IMG/VR virus record: IMGVR_UViG_2681813261_000028
Strand: one strand, 5' to 3'
Source of the DNA: a virus
Taxonomy: Duplodnaviria > Heunggongvirae > Uroviricota > Caudoviricetes
DNA: 9,554 nt
In this document: positions 1 to 9,554 of the stretch, piece by piece
Numbering within the stretch: the first letter of the stretch is position 1
How the letters are laid out: each line of letters begins with the position of its first letter
Position numbers and translations under genes: made by a program
Notes under the pieces: generated by a model
The model's input: the letters and a program-made list of their open reading frames with translations, nothing else
Databases searched by the model: none
Told to the model about the DNA's origin: nothing

Positions 1-981
1 TTATAACGTCACTCCGCCTTTTAGTGGATTCAGAGCGACGGCATTTTGCAGATAGTCAGGCGCAAGGTGCGCATAGGCCATCGTCTGCTGAATGCTCGCA
101 TGTCCCAGAATCTGTTGCAGTGCGATTATATTGCCCCCATTCATCATGAAATGGCTTGCGAATGTATGCCGCAGGATGTGGGTTGCCTGATTGGGTGGTA
201 TATCAGGTTTCACTCTGCGTAAAATCCCGCAAAATTTCTCATAATCAACTTTGAATAATTTGGCGCTGGCCTCCTCTTTAACTTTTTTCTCCAGTTCCTC
301 AGAAATCGGCACGGTTCGCTTTTTACCGTTTTTGGTTTTCAGGAAGGTAACCCTGCAATTTGTAATCTGTGCTGGTTTTAGCGTGGCAACTTCCGTCCAT
401 CTTCCTCCAGTGCTCAGACATAAAAGCGCGACAAGTAAGTCATCACCAGCCAAAACATTTAACAGTTTTTCGATTTCTGCTTTTTCCAGGAACGTCATTT
501 CAGGGTTGGCCTCCGCCAGTGGCGGCAGTCCGTGAATTGGGTGTTGCCCGGAAAATTCATCCAATTGAATTAATTTTGTGAACATGCCGGATAATCTGTA
601 CATGTCACGGTTTATCGTTGCGGCACTGATACCATCACGTAGTCGCATGGAACGATAATCCATCAAAGCCCTTTTGCTCATCCTGCTCACTGGTATATCA
701 CCTATGCCGCTGATGGTTTTGAGTAGATGATTAAACTCTTTTGTTCCATGCTCGTGGTTTTGCCCGTGATATTTCCACCAGATGTCCAGCAACTCACTCA
801 AAGTCCGGCGGTCTGCTCGCTGGCCTCCCCATTCTTTCTGACTGGCATTGGCGATTGTGTATCGCTCAAATGCTAGTGCTTCAGCTTTTCTTTCGAATTT
901 CCTGCGGATGCGTTTTCCGTCGCGACCGCGAGGTCTAATGTCCACTTCATAGCGACCATCATCGAGCTTCTTAATTGCCAT
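1..981 (-). CDS. int: Tyrosine-type site-specific integrase (P2 Int-like)
   Basis: Minus-strand open frame ending at stop TAA (complement of 1..3). C-terminal catalytic region typical of tyrosine recombinases is visible (HILRHTFASHFMMNGG, ILGH, TMAYAHL). N-terminus MAIKKLDDGRYEV resembles P2/186-type integrases as recalled. ATG at 979..981 has GGAGGG 7 nt upstream; the ORF-track start at 1009..1011 (336 aa) has no Shine-Dalgarno, so 981 is preferred (326 aa). Confidence 0.9.
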   Translation of the reverse strand: MAIKKLDDGRYEVDIRPRGRDGKRIRRKFERKAEALAFERYTIANASQKEWGGQRADRRTLSELLDIWWKYHGQNHEHGTKEFNHLLKTISGIGDIPVSRMSKRALMDYRSMRLRDGISAATINRDMYRLSGMFTKLIQLDEFSGQHPIHGLPPLAEANPEMTFLEKAEIEKLLNVLAGDDLLVALLCLSTGGRWTEVATLKPAQITNCRVTFLKTKNGKKRTVPISEELEKKVKEEASAKLFKVDYEKFCGILRRVKPDIPPNQATHILRHTFASHFMMNGGNIIALQQILGHASIQQTMAYAHLAPDYLQNAVALNPLKGGVTL

Positions 982-1050
982 AAGAAAGCCCTCCGGCGCT
1001 GTATTCACCATCTTGGTAGCAAATGGTGAAAATGTAATCTTTATATAGAG

Positions 1051-2711: not shown

Positions 2712-3010
2712 TGTCCTGTTCTCATTCAGTTGTATTACTGAATAACGCCTTAAAAATCGCCGTTATGAAAAATGGCGACTTGTCTCTTATTCAACTTTGT
2801 CTTGATAAAGAAAAACGCGACATCACTGAATCTGTTATCGCGATTTATCAGAATGAATTAAACCTCCTGTCTGATGTGGTCAATTTACTTGTTAAACGCG
2901 CTGTATTCCACAAGCAAATTTCCTCAGTGGATGAACTGACAAAATTAACGACAGAACTTGCCAGTTATTGCGCTGATGTATCCAGGAAACTTAACGATAA
3001 AAGGAGCTGA
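2711..3010 (+). CDS. Hypothetical early-operon protein (position of P2 orf81)
   Basis: 99 aa from ATG 2711..2713, overlapping the upstream stop. Stop TGA at 3008..3010. No recognisable domain by eye. Confidence 0.5.
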   Translation: MSCSHSVVLLNNALKIAVMKNGDLSLIQLCLDKEKRDITESVIAIYQNELNLLSDVVNLLVKRAVFHKQISSVDELTKLTTELASYCADVSRKLNDKRS

Positions 3011-3012
3011 TA

Positions 3013-3237
3013 ATGCCGGACAACATAGATTTTATTCAGGAACAACAGGCTGAATTACTGGAGCGCCAGATTAACGCGGCAAGGGTAAAACATTGCGGTG
3101 CTTCTGCGCTGGTTTGCGAAGAGTGTGACGCGCCAATTCCTGCTGCCCGTCGTGCGGCTTATCCGTCAGCCACGCGTTGTGTTTCCTGTCAGTCAGTCTT
3201 TGAAGCAAAAAACAAACATTACCGGAGAACGGCATGA
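3013..3237 (+). CDS. TraR/DksA-family C4 zinc-finger protein
   Basis: 74 aa. AAGGAG at 3001..3006, 6 nt before ATG 3013. Four cysteines in CxxC-(17)-CxxC arrangement (CEECDAPIPAARRAAYPSATRCVSC), typical of the DksA/TraR zinc finger. Its stop overlaps the next start (ATGA at 3234..3237). Confidence 0.75.
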   Translation: MPDNIDFIQEQQAELLERQINAARVKHCGASALVCEECDAPIPAARRAAYPSATRCVSCQSVFEAKNKHYRRTA

Positions 3238-3509
3238 GTATTCGTATTGAAATTGGCGAACGTTATGTCGTTACCAGTGACAGCTTCCAGTTTATTCTCC
3301 ACGAGAAAAAGAGAGCGGAAAGCGGTAAAAACGCCGGTCAGGAATGGCTGGCGGTGGTTGGTTATTACCCGAAATTAAGCCAGCTCGTTTCCGGCCTGAT
3401 GCATCACGATATTCTGACCGGAAGCGCAAAGTCTTTTGCTGATTTAAACGCGCAGGTTGAGCAACTCAGCAAGCGTTGTTCAGAGGCTTTTGGCTCATAT
3501 GGCCGTTAA
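3234..3509 (+). CDS. Hypothetical early-operon protein (position of P2 orf83)
   Basis: 91 aa, ATG 3234 with GGAG at 3224..3227. Stop TAA at 3507..3509, overlapping the start of gene A by 11 nt. Confidence 0.5.
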   Translation: MSIRIEIGERYVVTSDSFQFILHEKKRAESGKNAGQEWLAVVGYYPKLSQLVSGLMHHDILTGSAKSFADLNAQVEQLSKRCSEAFGSYGR

Positions 3510-5796
3510 AGCCTCCGGGCGTTTTGTCCCTCCGTCAGCATTTGCTGCAGGCACCGGTAAGGCGTTTACCGGTGCTTATGCATGGAACGCGCCACGCGAG
3601 GCTGTCGGGCGCGAAAGACCCCTTACACGTGACGAGATGCGTCAGGTGCAAGGTGTTTTATCCACGATTAACCGCCTGCCTTACTTTTTGCGCTCGCTGT
3701 TTACGTCACGCTATGACTACATCCGGCGCAATAAAAGCCCGGTGCACGGGTTTTATTTCCTCACATCCACTTTTCAGCGTCGTTTATGGCCGCGCATTGA
3801 GCGTGTGAATCAGCGCCATGAAATGAACACCGACGCGTCGATGCTGTTTCTGGCTGAGCGTGACCACTATGCGCGCCTGCCGGGAATGAATGACAAGGAG
3901 CTGAAAAAGTTTGCCGCCCGTATCTCATCGCAGCTTTTCATGATGTATGAGGAACTCAGCGATGCCTGGGTGGATGCGCATGGCGAAAAAGAATCGCTGT
4001 TTACGGATGAGGCGCAGGCTCACCTCTATGGTCATGTTGCTGGCGCTGCACGTGCTTTCAATATTTCCCCTCTCTACTGGAAAAAATACCGTAAAGGACA
4101 GATGACCACGAGGCAGGCATATTCTGCCATTGCCCGTCTGTTTAACGATGAGTGGTGGATTAGTCAGCTTAAAGGCCAGCGTATGCGCTGGCATGAGGCG
4201 TTACTGATTGCTGTCGGGGAGGTCAATAAAGACCGTTCTCCTTATGCCAGTAAACATGCCATTCGTGATGTGCGTGCACGCCGCCAGGCAAATCTGGAAT
4301 TTCTTAAATCGTGTGATCTCGAAAACAGGGAAACAGGCGAGCGCATCGACCTTATCAGTAAGGTGATGGGCAGTATTTCTAATCCTGAAATTCGCCGGAT
4401 GGAGCTGATGAACACCATTGCCGGTATTGAGCGTTACGCCGCCGCAGAAGGTGATGTGGGGATGTTTATCACGCTGACCGCGCCGTCAAAGTATCACCCG
4501 ACACGTCAGGTTGGAAAAGGCGAAAGTAAAACCGTCCAGCTAAATCACGGCTGGAACGATGAGGCATTTAATCCAAAGGATGCGCAGCGTTATCTCTGCC
4601 GTATCTGGAGCCTGATGCGCACGGCATTCAAGGATAATGATTTACAGGTCTACGGTTTGCGAGTCGTCGAGCCACACCACGACGGAACGCCGCACTGGCA
4701 TATGATGCTTTTTTGTAATCCACGCCAGCGTAACCAGATTATCGAAATCATGCGTCGCTACGCGCTCAAAGAGGATGGCGACGAAAGAGGAGCTGCGCGA
4801 AACCGTTTTCAGGCAAAACATCTTAATCGGGGCGGTGCTGCGGGGTATATCGCGAAATACATCTCAAAAAATATCGACGGCTATGCACTGGATGGGCAGC
4901 TCGATAACGATAGCGGCAGACCGCTGAAAGATACTGCCGCGGCTGTTACCGCATGGGCGTCAACGTGGCGCATTCCGCAATTTAAAACGGTTGGCCTGCC
5001 GACAATGGGGGCTTACCGTGAACTACGCAAATTGCCTCGCGGCGTCAGCATTGCTGATGAGTTTGACGAGCGCGTCGAGGCTGCACGCGCCGCCGCAGAC
5101 AGTGGTGATTTTGCGCTGTATATCAGCGCGCAGGGTGGGGCAAATGTCCCGCGCGATTGTCAGACTGTCAGGGTCGCCCGTAGTCCGTCGGATGAAGTTA
5201 ACGAGTACGAGGAAGAAGTCGAGAGAGTGGTCGGCATTTACGCGCCGCATCTCGGCGCGCGTCATATTCATATCACCAGAACGACGGACTGGCGCATTGT
5301 TCCGAAAGTGCCGGTCGTTGAGCCTTTGACTTTAAAAAGCGGCATCGCCGCGCCTCGGAGTCCTGTCAATAACTGTGGAAAGCTCACTGGTGGTGATACT
5401 TCGTTACCGGCTCCCACACCTTCTGAGCACGCCGCAGCAGTGCTTAATCTGGTAGATGACGGTGTTATCGAATGGAATGACCCGGAGGTTGTGAGGGCGC
5501 TCAGAGGTGCATTAAAACACGGACTGAGAAGACCAAACCGTCAGCAAAGAAACGGAAGCCCGTTAAAACCGCATGAAATAGCGCCATCGGCCAGACTGAC
5601 CCGGTCGGAACGAATGCAAATTACCCGTATCCGCGTTGACCTTGCTCAGAACGGTATCAGGCCGCAGCGATGGGAGCTTGAGGTGCTGGCGCGTGGGGCA
5701 ACCGTAAATTATGACGGGAAAAAATTCACTTACCCGCTCGCTGATGAGTGGTCGGGATTCTCAACAGTATTAGAGTCAAACTCAGTGAAGCGTTAA
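3499..5796 (+). CDS. A: Rolling-circle replication initiator / replication endonuclease (P2 gpA family, HUH superfamily)
   Basis: Long ORF, stop TAA 5794..5796. HUH metal-binding motif HWHMML at 4693..4710 and tandem-tyrosine motif YIAKY at 4846..4860, the two signatures of phiX174/P2-type initiators. ATG 3499 is preferred (765 aa) over the ORF-track TTG at 3457 (779 aa); the N-terminus then reads MAVKASGRFVPP. Confidence 0.9.
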   Translation: MAVKASGRFVPPSAFAAGTGKAFTGAYAWNAPREAVGRERPLTRDEMRQVQGVLSTINRLPYFLRSLFTSRYDYIRRNKSPVHGFYFLTSTFQRRLWPRIERVNQRHEMNTDASMLFLAERDHYARLPGMNDKELKKFAARISSQLFMMYEELSDAWVDAHGEKESLFTDEAQAHLYGHVAGAARAFNISPLYWKKYRKGQMTTRQAYSAIARLFNDEWWISQLKGQRMRWHEALLIAVGEVNKDRSPYASKHAIRDVRARRQANLEFLKSCDLENRETGERIDLISKVMGSISNPEIRRMELMNTIAGIERYAAAEGDVGMFITLTAPSKYHPTRQVGKGESKTVQLNHGWNDEAFNPKDAQRYLCRIWSLMRTAFKDNDLQVYGLRVVEPHHDGTPHWHMMLFCNPRQRNQIIEIMRRYALKEDGDERGAARNRFQAKHLNRGGAAGYIAKYISKNIDGYALDGQLDNDSGRPLKDTAAAVTAWASTWRIPQFKTVGLPTMGAYRELRKLPRGVSIADEFDERVEAARAAADSGDFALYISAQGGANVPRDCQTVRVARSPSDEVNEYEEEVERVVGIYAPHLGARHIHITRTTDWRIVPKVPVVEPLTLKSGIAAPRSPVNNCGKLTGGDTSLPAPTPSEHAAAVLNLVDDGVIEWNDPEVVRALRGALKHGLRRPNRQQRNGSPLKPHEIAPSARLTRSERMQITRIRVDLAQNGIRPQRWELEVLARGATVNYDGKKFTYPLADEWSGFSTVLESNSVKR

Positions 5797-5882
5797 CTCA
5801 ATAAATATGAGTTTATAAGTTAGGCCTCGAGATTTTGTAGAAAGGGATGTATACTGAGTATCGTATAGATTTGGAGTGAGTG

Positions 5883-6905
5883 ATGACTGTAAAGGTGATA
5901 GACCTTTTTTGTGGTGCTGGCGGATTAACTCATGGTTTGCAGCTTGCGGGGCTTGATGTCGTTGCAGGCATTGACCTTGAGGGGGAATGTAGGTTTCCCT
6001 ATGAAAGAAACAATAAATCTAAGTTTATTGAGCAAGATATCGCTAAAGTAACAAAAGAGGAACTGCTGAGGCTTTATGGTGATGCGTCTGTAAAAGTATT
6101 GGCAGGATGCGCACCTTGCCAACCTTTTTCAAAATATACTCAAGGAAAAGATAAGGCTGATGATAAAAAATGGCCTCTTCTTTATGAGTTCGAACGTTTA
6201 ATTCGCGAAGTATCTCCAGAAATCGTAACAATGGAGAACGTTCCTGATGTAACTAAACATAAAGTTTATAATGATTTTTATAATTCATTGTTAAAGTTGG
6301 GCTATTATGTTTGGGCGTCTAAGATTGATTGTGTCGAATATGGAATCCCACAAAACCGTTCCCGTCATGTATTGTTGGCCTCAAAATTGGGGGCGATTGA
6401 GTTAGTAAAACGTGACGATGTTATTTTGAAAACAGTTAGAGATGCAATAGGAAATCTTCCTCCATTAGAAGATGGCCAAACAGATCCAAATGATATATTA
6501 CATAGAGCCAGTAAATTAAATCCGATTAATAAAAAAAGAATTATACACTCTGTTCCTGGTGGTACATGGAAGGACTGGCCGAAAGAGTTGGTTGCCGCTT
6601 GTCATATGAAATCCAGCGGTAAAGGGTATGCTAGTGTATATGGGCGCATGTCTTGGGATAAGCCAAGTCCAACAATTACAACTCTTTGTTATGGTTTCGG
6701 GAATGGGCGTTTTGGACATCCAGAACAGCATAGAGCGATTTCTCTTAGAGAGGCTGCTTTATTGCAAACTTTCCCGATGGATTATATTTTTGTAGAAGAC
6801 AAAAACAAGTTTGTTATAAGAAGTATTGGGAAAATGATAGGTAATGCTGTTCCTGTGGAACTAGGAAAAGCAATTGGGCAATCAATCAAGAACCATTTAG
6901 AATGA
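5883..6905 (+). CDS. DNA (cytosine-5)-methyltransferase
   Basis: 340 aa from ATG 5883 (GGAG at 5873..5876); the ORF-track start 5880 is GTG. Canonical C5-MTase motifs are in order: motif I DLFCGAGG, motif IV catalytic GCAPCQPFS, motif VI TMENVPDV, motif VIII QNRSRHVLLA, motif X GNAVPVELG. The variable region between VIII and X is short, suggesting a short recognition site. Stop TGA at 6903..6905. Confidence 0.9.
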   Translation: MTVKVIDLFCGAGGLTHGLQLAGLDVVAGIDLEGECRFPYERNNKSKFIEQDIAKVTKEELLRLYGDASVKVLAGCAPCQPFSKYTQGKDKADDKKWPLLYEFERLIREVSPEIVTMENVPDVTKHKVYNDFYNSLLKLGYYVWASKIDCVEYGIPQNRSRHVLLASKLGAIELVKRDDVILKTVRDAIGNLPPLEDGQTDPNDILHRASKLNPINKKRIIHSVPGGTWKDWPKELVAACHMKSSGKGYASVYGRMSWDKPSPTITTLCYGFGNGRFGHPEQHRAISLREAALLQTFPMDYIFVEDKNKFVIRSIGKMIGNAVPVELGKAIGQSIKNHLE

Positions 6906-6909
6906 TAAA

Positions 6910-6930
6910 ATGGCCTGCTTTACAGGCCTT
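6910..6930. terminator. Putative bidirectional intrinsic terminator between convergent genes
   Basis: Perfect 6-bp stem GGCCTG (6912..6917) / CAGGCC (6923..6928) with 5-nt loop CTTTA. It sits in the 29-bp gap between the MTase stop (6905) and the minus-strand gene stop (6935), with A/T-rich flanks on both sides. The stem is short, so strength is uncertain. Confidence 0.45.
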
Positions 6931-6934
6931 ATAA

Positions 6935-7181
6935 CTATTGTTCTAAATATTCATTATTATTTATATAGTGCTCTATATTATTCACGATAGCATCAAGATA
7001 GGCGATTACTTCTAATGAAATATTCTCTAAGTCCTGATATGAAACATTTTTTCCAATCTCAGCAAATGATACATTGCCATGAGATAAATCATTACGATGT
7101 TGTTTAACAGTGGCTAATTTTTCACCATGTTTAGTGTGAGTGTAATCGGAATGTGTAGAAAAACCATATATTTTCGATTTT
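6935..7181 (-). CDS. C-terminal segment of a HEPN-like protein (Rx4H motif); start lost in N-run
   Basis: Minus-strand frame open from the N-run (7182) to stop TAG (complement of 6935..6937), 82 codons. Contains ...VKQHRNDLSHGNVSF... with R at 7094..7096 and H at 7079..7081, matching the HEPN RNase motif R-x4-H. This frame differs from the upstream segment 7215..7652, so both are probably one gene whose frame is hidden by the gap. Confidence 0.5.
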
Positions 7182-7652
7182 NNNNNNNNNNNNNNNNNNN
7201 NNNNNNNNNNNNNNTTTTTCTTTGATTTCCTCTCTATCAATATTTCCTGAGAATATTTTCTTTTTGTTGAACGTGCCATAAGATATACCGCAAGATATAC
7301 CTTTGGTAAGGTGATTAACTAAACTTTCAACATTTACAGATTCATTTTTTAATCTTTTTAATATTTCTGACCTGAGATTTTTCCTGAGTTTGTCAAATTC
7401 TACGTTTCTATCATAAATAGTCTCATGAATAAGGCAGATAGCTTCTCTCATTGTTGATTCAATGAGGTTATATAACAGTATATATACTGCTCCCTTTAGA
7501 GTTTTTCGTGATTGAGCAGTAATGGAGAACTTATGTTCTTTATCATCAGCTGATATCAGTTCTGCACCGGCATACTCAATAAATTTCAAAAGATCCAAAT
7601 AGGCCAAGATCTCTCCTGACCTTTCGTCAAAATCCTCACGAAAACGATCCAT
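7131..7652 (-). CDS. N-terminal segment of the DUF262-partner protein (same gene as 6935..7181 if the gap hides a frame change)
   Basis: ATG at 7650..7652 (complement) lies 1 nt after the DUF262 stop (TAAcATG), indicating an operon. Read literally through the 33 N it runs to a stop at 7131 (173 aa); only 7215..7652 is real sequence. The protein looks helical and charged, with no catalytic motif upstream of the gap. Confidence 0.6.
   Translation of the reverse strand: MDRFREDFDERSGEILAYLDLLKFIEYAGAELISADDKEHKFSITAQSRKTLKGAVYILLYNLIESTMREAICLIHETIYDRNVEFDKLRKNLRSEILKRLKNESVNVESLVNHLTKGISCGISYGTFNKKKIFSGNIDREEIKEKXXXXXXXXXXXKIENIWFFYTFRLHSH
7182..7214. other. Run of 33 N (assembly gap or masked bases)
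   Basis: 33 consecutive n characters seen directly in the sequence, inside the small minus-strand gene. Confidence 0.97.
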
Positions 7653-7653
7653 G

Positions 7654-8796
7654 TTAATCCTCTAATAATTTATCCCGAACATATTCAATTCGTTCAATTA
7701 CCTTCACGCGACTATTAGCTCCGTCGGAAGTGGTCAATCGTTTGAATTCTTCTGAGCTTAGCCAATCTAAGTTCTTGGGAACAAGGTCAGGGACTTCACG
7801 TAATGCAAGTGCTGCGCCAACAGCGAGAGATTCGAATCTAACTCGAGGTGTAGATTTTGCAGTAATAGTTTTCTTGAATCCTGCTGGGAAATAGTTTTCA
7901 ACAAAAGATAGAACATTAGCAAACTCTTGTTTCATTGAGTTTTGTTTAGTTTCGTCTATATCTCGATTTTCTGACATATAGTCATTTAGAAAATCCCGTA
8001 CGGAATGATCAAAGTTCTTGTACTTATCTACGTAGGCAAAGAATCTTAATGTAAATTCTAACCGTTCATCTCGTTTTTCTTTAGTCTGAGATAAAGGTGC
8101 TAATTCTTTAAATTTAGGTATTGTTGAGCATGGCTTAATAACCTGTGTATATAAATTTGTTGAACCAAGTTCTGATCCTTTACGGACTTCCATATCTTTC
8201 AATATATCGCTGCCAGAGTTAATACGCTCAAAAAGATCTCTACGGGTTTCTTCATTGCATTTAGAACTCAATTCTATAACGCGGACAGGAATTCTCATGA
8301 AACGACGTTGACGTGATAATGGTAAATCTTGGAATTTGAAACCATTAAGGACGTCTAAAGATTTCAGGTCTTGTAAAACTAATTCATTTTGGATAAAAGC
8401 GTGTATAGTCCTAACTCGTTGTGAGCCATCAACAATCTCAATTCGCCCATCTAAATCGGGATCTTCGGAGAGAACATCTGCTATAAATATATATGGTATA
8501 GGAAAACCCAAAATCAAAGACTCTATCAATTTTGATTGTCTTTTTTCACTCCAAACAAAATCCCTTTGATAATCAGGAACAAAGAGTTCGTTAGTATCAT
8601 CCTCTAATCCGTTATGATACTTATTAACTAATAACTCAACGGTAAATTCTTTGGTCTCAAAATCCACATCCTTTTGCTCAGCACGAATTTGCTCTTCAGC
8701 GTTTTGCTTTATCACCTCTAGCTGAGCAAGCAACTCTGCTCTTTTCTTGGCATTATCTTCATTTTCTAGTTGAGATTTTAAATCAATAATGTCCAT
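7654..8796 (-). CDS. DUF262-domain protein (ParB/Srx-like NTPase fold, GmrSD N-terminal-domain family) without a nuclease domain
   Basis: 380 aa from ATG 8794..8796 (AAGGGA 8 nt upstream on the minus strand); the ORF-track start 8814 is TTG. DUF262 signature motifs are present: VPDYQRDFVW and IVDGSQRVRTI (the DGQQR box). No HNH/DUF1524-type His-rich motif in the C-terminal third. Stop TAA at 7654..7656. Confidence 0.85.
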   Translation of the reverse strand: MDIIDLKSQLENEDNAKKRAELLAQLEVIKQNAEEQIRAEQKDVDFETKEFTVELLVNKYHNGLEDDTNELFVPDYQRDFVWSEKRQSKLIESLILGFPIPYIFIADVLSEDPDLDGRIEIVDGSQRVRTIHAFIQNELVLQDLKSLDVLNGFKFQDLPLSRQRRFMRIPVRVIELSSKCNEETRRDLFERINSGSDILKDMEVRKGSELGSTNLYTQVIKPCSTIPKFKELAPLSQTKEKRDERLEFTLRFFAYVDKYKNFDHSVRDFLNDYMSENRDIDETKQNSMKQEFANVLSFVENYFPAGFKKTITAKSTPRVRFESLAVGAALALREVPDLVPKNLDWLSSEEFKRLTTSDGANSRVKVIERIEYVRDKLLED

Positions 8797-8981: not shown

Positions 8982-9000
8982 GGCGAGGCGGGGAAAGCAC
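8982..9000. other. Phage cohesive-end (cos) site, P2-type 19-mer
   Basis: GGCGAGGCGGGGAAAGCAC at 8982..9000 matches the 19-nt cohesive end of P2 as I recall it (from memory, not searched). It lies in a GC-rich non-coding stretch between the cargo island and the 3' end of the portal-like gene, where cos sits in a P2 prophage. Confidence 0.6.
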
Positions 9001-9167: not shown

Positions 9168-9554
9168 TCAGCCGTTGTCAGTGTCCAGTGAGTAGTTTTT
9201 AAAGCGGATGACCTCCTGACCGAGCCAGCCGTTTATCTCGCGGATCCTGTCCTGTAACGGGATAAGCTCATTGCGGACAAAGACCTTTGCCACTTTCTCA
9301 ATATCACCCAGCGACCCGACGTTCTCCGGCTTGCCCCCCATCAACTGAAAGGGGATGCGGTGCGCGTCCAGCAGGTCAGCGGCGCTGGCTTTTTTGATAT
9401 TAAAAAAATCGTCCTTCGTTGCCACTTCACTGAGCGGGATAATTTTAATGCCGTCGGCTTTCCCCTGTGGGGCATAGAGAAACAGATTTTTAAAGTTATT
9501 GCGGCCTTTGCAAAATGGCATCTGAATCGATCGCAGTTTGGCATTCGAATCGAT
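9168..9554 (-). CDS. Q: Portal-like capsid protein, C-terminal part (5' end outside the window)
   Basis: Minus-strand frame is open from the window edge (9554) to stop TGA (complement of 9168..9170); no stop between 9522 and 9554, so the ORF-track Met at 9521 is internal. Assignment to P2 gpQ rests on position (leftward gene with its 3' end next to cos) and is unverified. Confidence 0.55.
   Translation of the reverse strand: MDSNAKLRSIQMPFCKGRNNFKNLFLYAPQGKADGIKIIPLSEVATKDDFFNIKKASAADLLDAHRIPFQLMGGKPENVGSLGDIEKVAKVFVRNELIPLQDRIREINGWLGQEVIRFKNYSLDTDNG

What the first reader, a model, noticed from the sequence alone, without database searches (positions are those of the whole stretch)
6935..8796. 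Two-gene DUF262 + HEPN-like operon in the P2 tin/old cargo slot: candidate undescribed defence module
The two minus-strand genes are translationally coupled (TAAcATG at 7650..7656). The first has the DUF262 motifs (PxYQRxxVW, DGSQR) but lacks the C-terminal HNH/DUF1524 nuclease found in GmrSD, SspE or BrxU. The second carries an R-N-x3-H HEPN-type RNase motif. A DUF262 sensor/NTPase with the nuclease supplied in trans as a HEPN RNase matches no named system I can recall. Its location, where P2 carries the exclusion genes tin and old, suggests an anti-phage or abortive-infection role.
Basis: partly seen in the sequence, partly recalled or inferred. Interest (0 to 1): 0.85.

Follow-up and report, generated by a model that had tools for sequence, protein, structure and literature searches.

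The report
Methylase-linked DUF262–HEPN defence cassette in P2
The two genes are real, but they belong to a conserved three-gene cassette (DNA cytosine methylase, DUF262 DNA sensor, HEPN RNase) that was already catalogued in P2 prophages and is related to the validated anti-phage system PD-T4-2, so it is an untested variant of a known kind, not a new one.

Summary
The observation largely holds. A 380-aa DUF262-only protein (7654-8796, minus strand) is followed after TAAcATG by a MAE_28990-family HEPN gene (6935-7652) with an RNDLSH motif. Both lie between P2 gene A and cos/portal.

First, in this window the HEPN gene is broken by 33 N plus a 4-nt duplication, whereas relatives identical on both sides carry an intact 226-aa gene. 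Second, the convergent C5 DNA methyltransferase (5883-6905) belongs to the unit. It accompanies the pair in 9 of 9 E. coli genomes, in P2-like and Moraxella phages, and in Vibrio, cyanobacteria, Bacteroidales and Acidobacteria, and it co-varies with DUF262.

"Undescribed" is not supported. This neighbourhood type was noted in 2013. The same arrangement (same protein accessions as a 98%-identical E. coli locus) is listed in Rousset 2022 Table S5A. PD-T4-2 is a validated DUF262+HEPN system. PADLOC matches NsnA and PD-T4-2_A for the DUF262 protein but has no model for this HEPN.

Best reading, inferred and not shown: methylation-gated defence in which a ParB-like NTPase sensor controls a HEPN RNase. 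I found no report that it was tested.

The parts
5883..6905 (+). C5 DNA cytosine methyltransferase (340 aa; the listed ORF starts at GTG 5880), convergent with the HEPN gene; proposed modification arm of the cassette
   Evidence: PF00145 E 3.4e-58, TIGR00675 dcm. Best solved relatives are M.HaeIII and M.HhaI. It is found in exactly the same 9 of 5426 E. coli genomes as the pair. An orthologue is adjacent in 37 of 80 GTDB loci and in phage loci. Its pairwise identities correlate with those of DUF262 at r=0.96.
6912..6928 (-). GC-rich hairpin followed by a T-run between the convergent methylase and HEPN genes; likely a terminator, possibly bidirectional
   Evidence: Terminator-like site GGCCTGTAAAGCAGGCC ATTTTATCAT. 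Pattern match only.
6935..7652 (-). MAE_28990-family HEPN gene (predicted RNase effector). In this window it is split into two frames by the N-run; it is 226 aa in relatives. The Rx4H motif RNDLSH is in the C-terminal part.
7182..7214 (.). Run of 33 N. Together with a duplicated AAAA it adds 37 nt relative to relatives and shifts the HEPN frame.
   Evidence: L008 is 100% identical on both flanks, and the flanks overlap by 4 nt.
7654..8796 (-). DUF262-only (ParB/Srx-like NTPase domain plus helical C-terminal domain) NsnA-like protein, 380 aa; proposed DNA sensor and regulator
8982..9000 (+). P2-type cos cohesive-end sequence GGCGAGGCGGGGAAAGCAC, which marks the cargo as cos-proximal (right end of the linear phage genome)
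   Evidence: Exact match, with 0 expected by chance. The sequence itself was recalled from memory. It is supported by phage L-413C, whose linear record ends exactly at window 9000. Rousset 2022 places the hotspot next to cos.

Best explanation
The finding is the 'restriction-like' arm of a mobile three-gene cassette carried in the cos-proximal cargo slot of a P2-like prophage. The cassette is a C5 DNA methyltransferase, an NsnA-like DUF262 protein and a MAE_28990-family HEPN protein. Proposed mechanism: the methyltransferase marks resident DNA. The DUF262 protein is a ParB/Srx-fold NTP-binding module with a helical DNA-binding C-terminal domain and no nuclease domain of its own; it surveys DNA and tells unmarked (incoming) DNA from marked DNA. 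It is made together with the HEPN protein, probably binds it, and controls it. Once released or activated, the HEPN protein cleaves RNA through its Rx4H site and stops translation, either aborting the infection or backing up a DNA-level block. Shown here: domain identities, conservation of the catalytic motifs, tight A-to-B gene coupling, and co-inheritance and co-variation with the methylase across phyla and across unrelated phages. Inferred: every functional step, namely the methylation target, what the sensor reads, complex formation, the RNA target and the defence phenotype. In this window the HEPN gene may be non-functional or simply mis-assembled.
For: Domains and motifs. Folds. DUF262 lies immediately upstream of HEPN in 80 of 80 GTDB loci, with stop/start overlap or gaps of 1-3 nt. 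The methylase is co-located in 9 of 9 E. coli genomes, in Peduovirus P24B2 and in nine Moraxella phages at only 43-45% (DUF262) and 29-32% (HEPN) identity, and in Vibrio, Brasilonema and metagenomic contigs. The link survives gene-order changes: the methylase is upstream and co-directional in L018, L072 and L096, and downstream and co-directional in L053. The methylase and DUF262 identity matrices correlate at r=0.96, Mantel p=0.001. Literature: the MAE_28990 HEPN + ParB + methylase neighbourhood and the PrrC-like 'second line' model; PD-T4-2 (DUF262+HEPN) gives real anti-T4 defence, including in its native strain; PD-lambda-5 (ParB/HEPN fusion plus methyltransferase) was interpreted as a compact RM+Abi system; Li 2025 raises the possibility that ParB-DUF262 targets non-modified genomes when it is linked to lone methylases.
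Against: No experiment exists on this trio. About half of the GTDB loci (43 of 80) lack an adjacent methylase. Most of those are one Nostocales lineage fixed next to acnB, with no substitute methylase nearby, so the pair can persist without a linked methylase. PD-T4-2 works in K-12 when cloned as two genes only. Characterised DUF262 proteins (GmrSD, BrxU, SspE) sense modified DNA, not unmodified DNA. The identity-matrix correlation would also arise from simple co-inheritance. The HEPN gene is interrupted in this window.
Confidence: 0.5

Rival explanations
1. The pair is an autonomous PD-T4-2-like two-gene defence system. DUF262 senses a phage cue and HEPN is the effector, with no need for the methylase. 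The methylase is separate hotspot cargo, for example protecting phage DNA from restriction or serving other partners, and stays adjacent only through linkage.
For: PD-T4-2 protects as a two-gene clone. There are 43 of 80 loci without an adjacent methylase but with intact motifs. In Rousset Table S5B the same methylase cluster representative is paired with other modules (systems #2 and #17, 'RM-like system'), and a 'HEPN_RiboL-PSP | DUF262' pair is listed without a methylase (#131).
Against: The methylase is orthologous and adjacent in lineages as distant as Enterobacterales, Moraxella phages, Vibrio, Bacteroidales, Acidobacteria and many cyanobacteria. It stays linked when gene order changes. 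Co-occurrence is 9 of 9 in E. coli.
Confidence: 0.25
2. It is a Type IV-like, modification-dependent system. As in GmrSD, BrxU and SspE, the DUF262 domain recognises modified phage DNA (for example hmC or glucosyl-hmC), and a HEPN nuclease replaces the DUF1524 HNH domain.
For: The best structural matches of the DUF262 model are BrxU and SspE. PD-T4-2 was selected on T4, whose DNA is modified. Rousset Table S6 labels a Vibrio 'DUF262 + DUF262/DndB + HEPN_MAE_28990' locus 'Type-IV restriction'.
Against: A co-inherited cytosine methylase that modifies self DNA fits poorly with a modification-dependent nuclease, although 5mC need not be the mark that is recognised. HEPN domains are typically RNases, not DNases. 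No DUF1524 is present.
Confidence: 0.1
3. It is a toxin-antitoxin or addiction module that stabilises the prophage (HEPN toxin, with DUF262 and/or the methylase as antidote) and has no primary anti-phage role. Alternatively, in this genome it is a decaying remnant.
Against: The catalytic motifs are strongly conserved in both proteins across phyla. The locus sits in a hotspot that is rich in validated defence systems. A related pair has been validated as a defence system.
Confidence: 0.08

Closest known systems
PD-T4-2 (Vassallo et al. 2022, E. coli ECOR65)
   Same: A two-gene operon made of a DUF262-only protein followed by a small HEPN protein, in E. coli. The DUF262 protein matches the PADLOC PD-T4-2_A model over nearly its full length (E 2.4e-35). 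HHpred places PD-T4-2B in the same two Pfam families, PF18735 and PF18737, that the HEPN here hits.
   Different: The HEPN here is longer (226 aa, against a 168-position model) and does not hit PD-T4-2_B even at E<=10. The DUF262 protein scores better against NsnA. A cognate C5 methylase is attached here, whereas PD-T4-2 was cloned and is active without one. I could not obtain the PD-T4-2 sequences, so no direct alignment was made.
Menshen (NsnABC; Millman 2022, Li et al. 2025)
   Same: The DUF262 protein is NsnA-like: a ParB-DUF262 domain plus a helical C-terminal 'ParBDB'-type domain, with PADLOC NsnA E 1.6e-54 covering model positions 23-376 of 385. Li et al. propose it acts as a DNA sensor.
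   Different: There is no NsnB ABC-ATPase and no NsnC inPIN effector. The next gene is a HEPN, and a methylase follows.
MAE_28990 HEPN neighbourhood of Anantharaman et al. 2013
   Same: [quoted passage not shown] They proposed PrrC-like 'multi-pronged' R-M plus RNase logic.
   Different: That work was computational and gave no phenotype. Here the ParB-like protein has no recognised nuclease domain, so it may be a sensor and not the DNase they assumed.
PD-lambda-5 (Vassallo 2022)
   Same: A ParB-like domain, a HEPN and a DNA methyltransferase in one compact prophage-borne system, which the authors interpreted as RM+Abi.
   Different: There the ParB and HEPN are fused in one protein, and the methylase is a D12-class adenine enzyme. 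Neither protein here hits a PADLOC PD-Lambda-5 model. This is an analogy, not demonstrated homology.
GmrSD / BrxU / SspE (Type IV, modification-sensing)
   Same: They share the N-terminal DUF262 NTPase-type domain with a DGxQR motif, and they are the best structural matches.
   Different: The DUF1524/HNH nuclease is absent. The partner is a HEPN protein, and a methylase is linked.

Membership tests
PD-T4-2 | Component A: DUF262-only protein matching the PD-T4-2_A model | tested here: met
   PADLOC PDLC04027 E 2.4e-35, residues 73-372 against model positions 55-356 of 363. NsnA scores higher.
PD-T4-2 | Component B: small HEPN protein matching the PD-T4-2_B model | tested here: not met
   The intact 226-aa homologue gives no PADLOC hit at E<=10, and neither do the two halves from the window. 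It does fall in the same Pfam families (PF18737/PF18735) that HHpred gave for PD-T4-2B.
PD-T4-2 | Adjacent co-directional A-then-B gene pair | tested here: met
   TAAcATG junction. The pair is adjacent in 80 of 80 related loci.
PD-T4-2 | Protection against T-even phages | not testable with these tools
   Needs plaque assays.
Menshen (NsnABC) | NsnA-like ParB-DUF262 + ParBDB protein | tested here: met
   PADLOC NsnA E 1.6e-54 over nearly the full length. The AF2 model has a ParB-like N-terminal half and a helical C-terminal half.
Menshen (NsnABC) | NsnB ABC-ATPase (AAA_15 + DUF3696) directly downstream | tested here: not met
   The downstream gene is a HEPN. No ATPase lies between gene A and the portal gene.
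Menshen (NsnABC) | NsnC effector (inPIN domain plus nuclease) | tested here: not met
   No such gene is present.
GmrSD/BrxU/SspE Type IV enzymes | C-terminal DUF1524 His-Me/HNH nuclease fused to DUF262 | tested here: not met
   PF03235 is the only significant Pfam hit. Residues 201-378 are all helical in the model.
HEPN superfamily, MAE_28990 family | Profile match above the Pfam gathering score | tested here: met
   PF18737 scores 103 bits against a cut-off of 26.8 for the intact homologue, and 48.5 and 49.1 bits for the two halves in the window.
HEPN superfamily, MAE_28990 family | Rx4-6H catalytic motif | tested here: met
   RNDLSH is present. R174, N175 and H179 are invariant in 106 homologues, and RNDLAHG occurs in 75 of 80 GTDB loci.
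HEPN superfamily, MAE_28990 family | HEPN helical-bundle fold | tested here: met
HEPN superfamily, MAE_28990 family | RNase activity | not testable with these tools
   Needs biochemistry.
MAE_28990 + ParB + methylase neighbourhood (Anantharaman 2013) | All three genes adjacent, and the association conserved across lineages | tested here: met
   Present in the window, in 9 of 9 E. coli genomes, in phages and in 37 of 80 GTDB loci spanning several phyla.
Classical Type II restriction-modification | Cognate methyltransferase | tested here: met
   PF00145 E 3.4e-58.
Classical Type II restriction-modification | Endonuclease with a recognised DNase catalytic domain (PD-(D/E)XK, HNH, GIY-YIG or PLD) | tested here: not met
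   No such domain was found in either protein. There is only a weak hit to PADLOC REase_II PDLC03418 (E 9e-6), confined to the DUF262 region.
PD-lambda-5 | ParB-HEPN fusion protein plus D12-class methyltransferase | tested here: not met
   The ParB-like and HEPN parts are separate genes, and the methylase is a C5 enzyme. There are no PD-Lambda-5 model hits.

The most novel reading that the evidence does not exclude
A restriction-modification-like system whose restriction arm is an RNase and not a DNase. 5-methylcytosine written by the linked methylase marks self DNA. An NsnA-like ParB/DUF262 NTPase reads unmethylated foreign DNA and switches on a HEPN RNase. Epigenetic self/non-self discrimination would then be coupled directly to translational shutdown or abortive infection.
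Probability: 0.3. Interest if true: 0.7.

Novelty: new variant of a known kind. Interest (0 to 1): 0.4.

Why it matters
DUF262-only proteins paired with swappable effectors (PD-T4-2, Menshen, Dazbog) are validated defences whose triggers are unknown. This cassette keeps a cognate methylase next to the sensor-effector pair across phyla. That makes one hypothesis directly testable with standard host-controlled-modification experiments: a ParB-like DUF262 sensor reads DNA methylation state and gates a HEPN RNase. A positive result would give a mechanism for a widespread family (411 relatives confirmed among GTDB species genomes) and would link R-M logic to RNA-targeting abortive infection. A negative result would show that the methylase is bystander cargo in the P2 hotspot.

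Tried and rejected
(1) I tried to obtain the PD-T4-2 sequences for a direct alignment. Only accession numbers are in the supplement. ECOR65 is a draft genome and is not in the searchable collections. tblastn against phages gave P24B2, the Moraxella phages and a Klebsiella Reipivirus locus (L100) whose DUF262 protein is NsnA-like with an unrelated 220-aa partner, but not PD-T4-2. The comparison with PD-T4-2 therefore rests on PADLOC and Pfam models.

(2) Sequence searches against PDB, with single sequences and with profiles, gave only marginal DUF262 N-terminal hits and nothing for the HEPN. Fold search was needed.

(3) NCBIfam has no model for either protein.

(4) I looked for a substitute methylase in the loci that lack one. 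The recurrent ~890-aa upstream ORF is aconitase B, and other neighbours are housekeeping genes such as SecA and CobN. This is vertical synteny, not a system component.

(5) I considered whether the N-run hides a mobile-element insertion with a 4-bp target duplication. I judged this less likely than a scaffold gap, because relatives identical on both flanks have no insertion and the window also ends inside an IS repeat, as draft scaffolds do. It is not excluded.

(6) The HEPN of Rousset system #131 shows no detectable similarity to this HEPN family (hhalign probability 0.1%). That entry is therefore a different effector paired with a DUF262 of the same cluster.

(7) The sigma-70 promoter scan found no convincing promoter between cos and the DUF262 start codon.

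Full report
**What is in the window**

The window is the early/left arm of a P2-like prophage. In order it holds:
- integrase (1-1011, minus strand), a C-type repressor, cox and a B homologue;
- the replication endonuclease gene A (3457-5796);
- three low-GC cargo genes (31-39% GC, against 50-53% in the backbone);
- the P2 cos sequence (8982-9000);
- the 3' part of portal gene Q.

The cargo genes are a C5 DNA methyltransferase (5883-6905, plus strand) and, convergent with it, the two genes of the finding.

**Checking the observation**

The first gene runs from ATG 8796 to TAA 7654 and encodes 380 aa. Its stop is separated by a single C from the ATG of the second gene (TAAcATG at 7650-7656), and a GAGGA lies 5 nt upstream of that ATG.
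- Pfam gives only PF03235 (GmrSD_N/DUF262, E 7.7e-26).
- The PDYQRDFVW and DGSQR motifs are present and invariant among 81 homologues.

The second gene belongs to the MAE_28990 HEPN family.
- PF18737 scores about 1e-12 on each half in the window and 2.8e-29 on an intact homologue, which also passes PF18735.
- R174-N-D-L-S-H179-G is invariant in 106 homologues.

A run of 33 N (7182-7214) plus a duplicated AAAA adds 37 nt relative to relatives, so the two halves are in different frames. The exact DUF262 protein is very common: 1248 index blocks and 798 contigs, in E. coli and Shigella sonnei. Next to it the HEPN gene is an intact 226-aa ORF. Locus L008 is 100% identical to the window on both sides of the gap, and its flanks overlap by 4 nt.

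The window also ends (9510-9554) inside the end of a multicopy IS3-family element that cuts the portal gene. That is typical of a draft scaffold from an IS-rich genome. A scaffolding gap is therefore the most likely cause of the N-run, but a real inactivating insertion cannot be excluded.

- Among 5426 complete E. coli genomes, the pair and the methylase occur in the same nine genomes and nowhere else.
- Peduovirus P24B2 (45% and 29% identity for DUF262 and HEPN) and nine Moraxella phages (43% and 32%) have the same DUF262, HEPN and convergent C5-methylase layout.
- So do a Vibrio island, a Brasilonema element and a metagenomic contig.
- One locus places the methylase upstream in the same orientation.
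- One scan of GTDB species genomes found 411 relatives. In the 80 loci kept, DUF262 is directly upstream of HEPN in all 80, and an orthologous methylase is adjacent in 37. These span Gammaproteobacteria, Bacteroidales, Acidobacteria and many cyanobacteria, and three more loci have a rearranged order.
- Pairwise identities of the methylase and DUF262 correlate at r=0.96 (Mantel p=0.001). This shows co-inheritance, and does not by itself prove a functional link.
- The loci without a methylase are mostly one Nostocales lineage fixed next to aconitase B, with no substitute methylase nearby. The pair can therefore persist without a linked methylase.

**Comparison with known systems**

PADLOC models:
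- The DUF262 protein matches NsnA (Menshen, E 1.6e-54) and PD-T4-2_A (E 2.4e-35) over nearly their full lengths.
- The HEPN matches no PADLOC model, not even PD-T4-2_B at E<=10.
- No NsnB or NsnC gene is present.

PADLOC would therefore not call a complete system here, which explains why the locus looks unnamed.

The architecture is nonetheless described in the literature:
- Vassallo 2022 validated PD-T4-2, annotated 'DUF262, HEPN', against T4 and also by deletion in its native strain. HHpred places its B protein in PF18735 and PF18737.
- The same paper's PD-lambda-5 is a ParB/HEPN fusion plus a methyltransferase, which the authors read as a compact RM+Abi system.
- Rousset 2022 Table S5A lists this arrangement in the P2 A-Q hotspot as WP_000351260 + WP_001697730 + WP_000373633. 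These are the same accessions as the proteins of locus L001, which is about 97-98% identical to the window. It does not appear among the systems they tested (no 'DUF262' in Table S2).
- Their Table S5B also shows the same methylase cluster representative paired with other 'RM-like' modules, and a 'HEPN_RiboL-PSP | DUF262' pair annotated 'Likely a RNAse'. That HEPN is unrelated in sequence to the one here.
- I found no paper reporting an experiment on this trio.

**Mechanism**

Best-supported reading (confidence about 0.5, all functional steps inferred): the cassette is a methylation-gated defence system. The methylase marks resident DNA. The NsnA-like DUF262 protein acts as an NTP-dependent DNA sensor. 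The co-translated HEPN protein is the RNase effector, either as the primary output or as a PrrC-like second line.

Rivals:
- An autonomous PD-T4-2-like pair with the methylase as bystander cargo (0.25). This is supported by the methylase-less clade and by PD-T4-2 working alone.
- A Type IV-like sensor of modified DNA (0.1).
- A TA/addiction module or a decaying remnant (0.08).

These can be separated by transformation tests with and without the methylase, by host-controlled-modification plaque assays, and by motif mutants.

**Verdict**

The sequence features are real and conserved far beyond chance. The interpretation as a defence module is reasonable, but the module has three genes, is related to named systems and has already been catalogued. 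It is an untested variant of a known kind and of moderate interest. Its value is mainly as a tractable case for asking what DUF262-only sensors read.

Noticed in passing
window 7182-7214 (and 7215-7218): A 33-N run flanked by a 4-nt duplication (AAAA) inside the HEPN gene. Relatives identical on both flanks have no extra sequence, so this is probably a scaffold gap with overlapping contig ends, and it creates an apparent frameshift.
   Followed up: yes
window 9510-9554: The window departs from all related prophages inside portal gene Q. The 45-nt tail is the end of a multicopy IS3-family element (up to 35 copies per E. coli genome, also on plasmids). The prophage is therefore defective in this genome, and the source is probably an IS-rich Shigella or E. 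coli draft assembly.
   Followed up: partly
window 8982-9000: Exact P2-type cos cohesive-end sequence, 186 nt upstream of the DUF262 start codon. The cargo sits at the extreme right end of the linear phage genome.
   Followed up: yes
L014 (Brasilonema bromeliae QMEB01000152), 3910-8362: Here the three-gene cassette lies next to a XisA-type recombinase, between nitrogenase-like (Oxidored_nitro) gene fragments. It appears to ride on a heterocyst-excised nif-interrupting element.
   Followed up: no
L040, L041, L049, L051, L057, L059, L061, L071, L073, L075 and others (Nostocales): A methylase-less two-gene version is fixed immediately downstream of aconitase B in many Nostocales. This looks like vertical inheritance of a 'domesticated' DUF262-HEPN pair.
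   Followed up: partly
L063, L078, L083, L084, L087, L095 (Microcoleus): The DUF262 gene is reduced to a fragment of about 190 aa while the HEPN ORF remains. These loci have no methylase and may be decaying or remodelled.
   Followed up: no
L100 (Klebsiella phage ST16-OXA48phi5.4, NC_049450 28611-30514): Another P2-family (Reipivirus) phage carries an NsnA-like DUF262 protein (PADLOC NsnA E 1.5e-61) followed by a 220-aa protein with no PADLOC match, located between tail genes. This may be a further 'DUF262 sensor plus swapped effector' pair.
   Followed up: partly
L016 (ENA ERZ22147080 ctg71653l) 3006-4809: A second C5 methylase plus a Vsr mismatch endonuclease lie directly beside the cassette's own methylase.
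   Followed up: no
L007 and L009 4825-5856; L008 2361-4668: In other genomes that carry the identical DUF262 protein, the portal side of the hotspot is disrupted by different IS elements (an IS630-family DDE_3 transposase, and IS21 istAB). IS insertion next to this cargo is recurrent.
   Followed up: no
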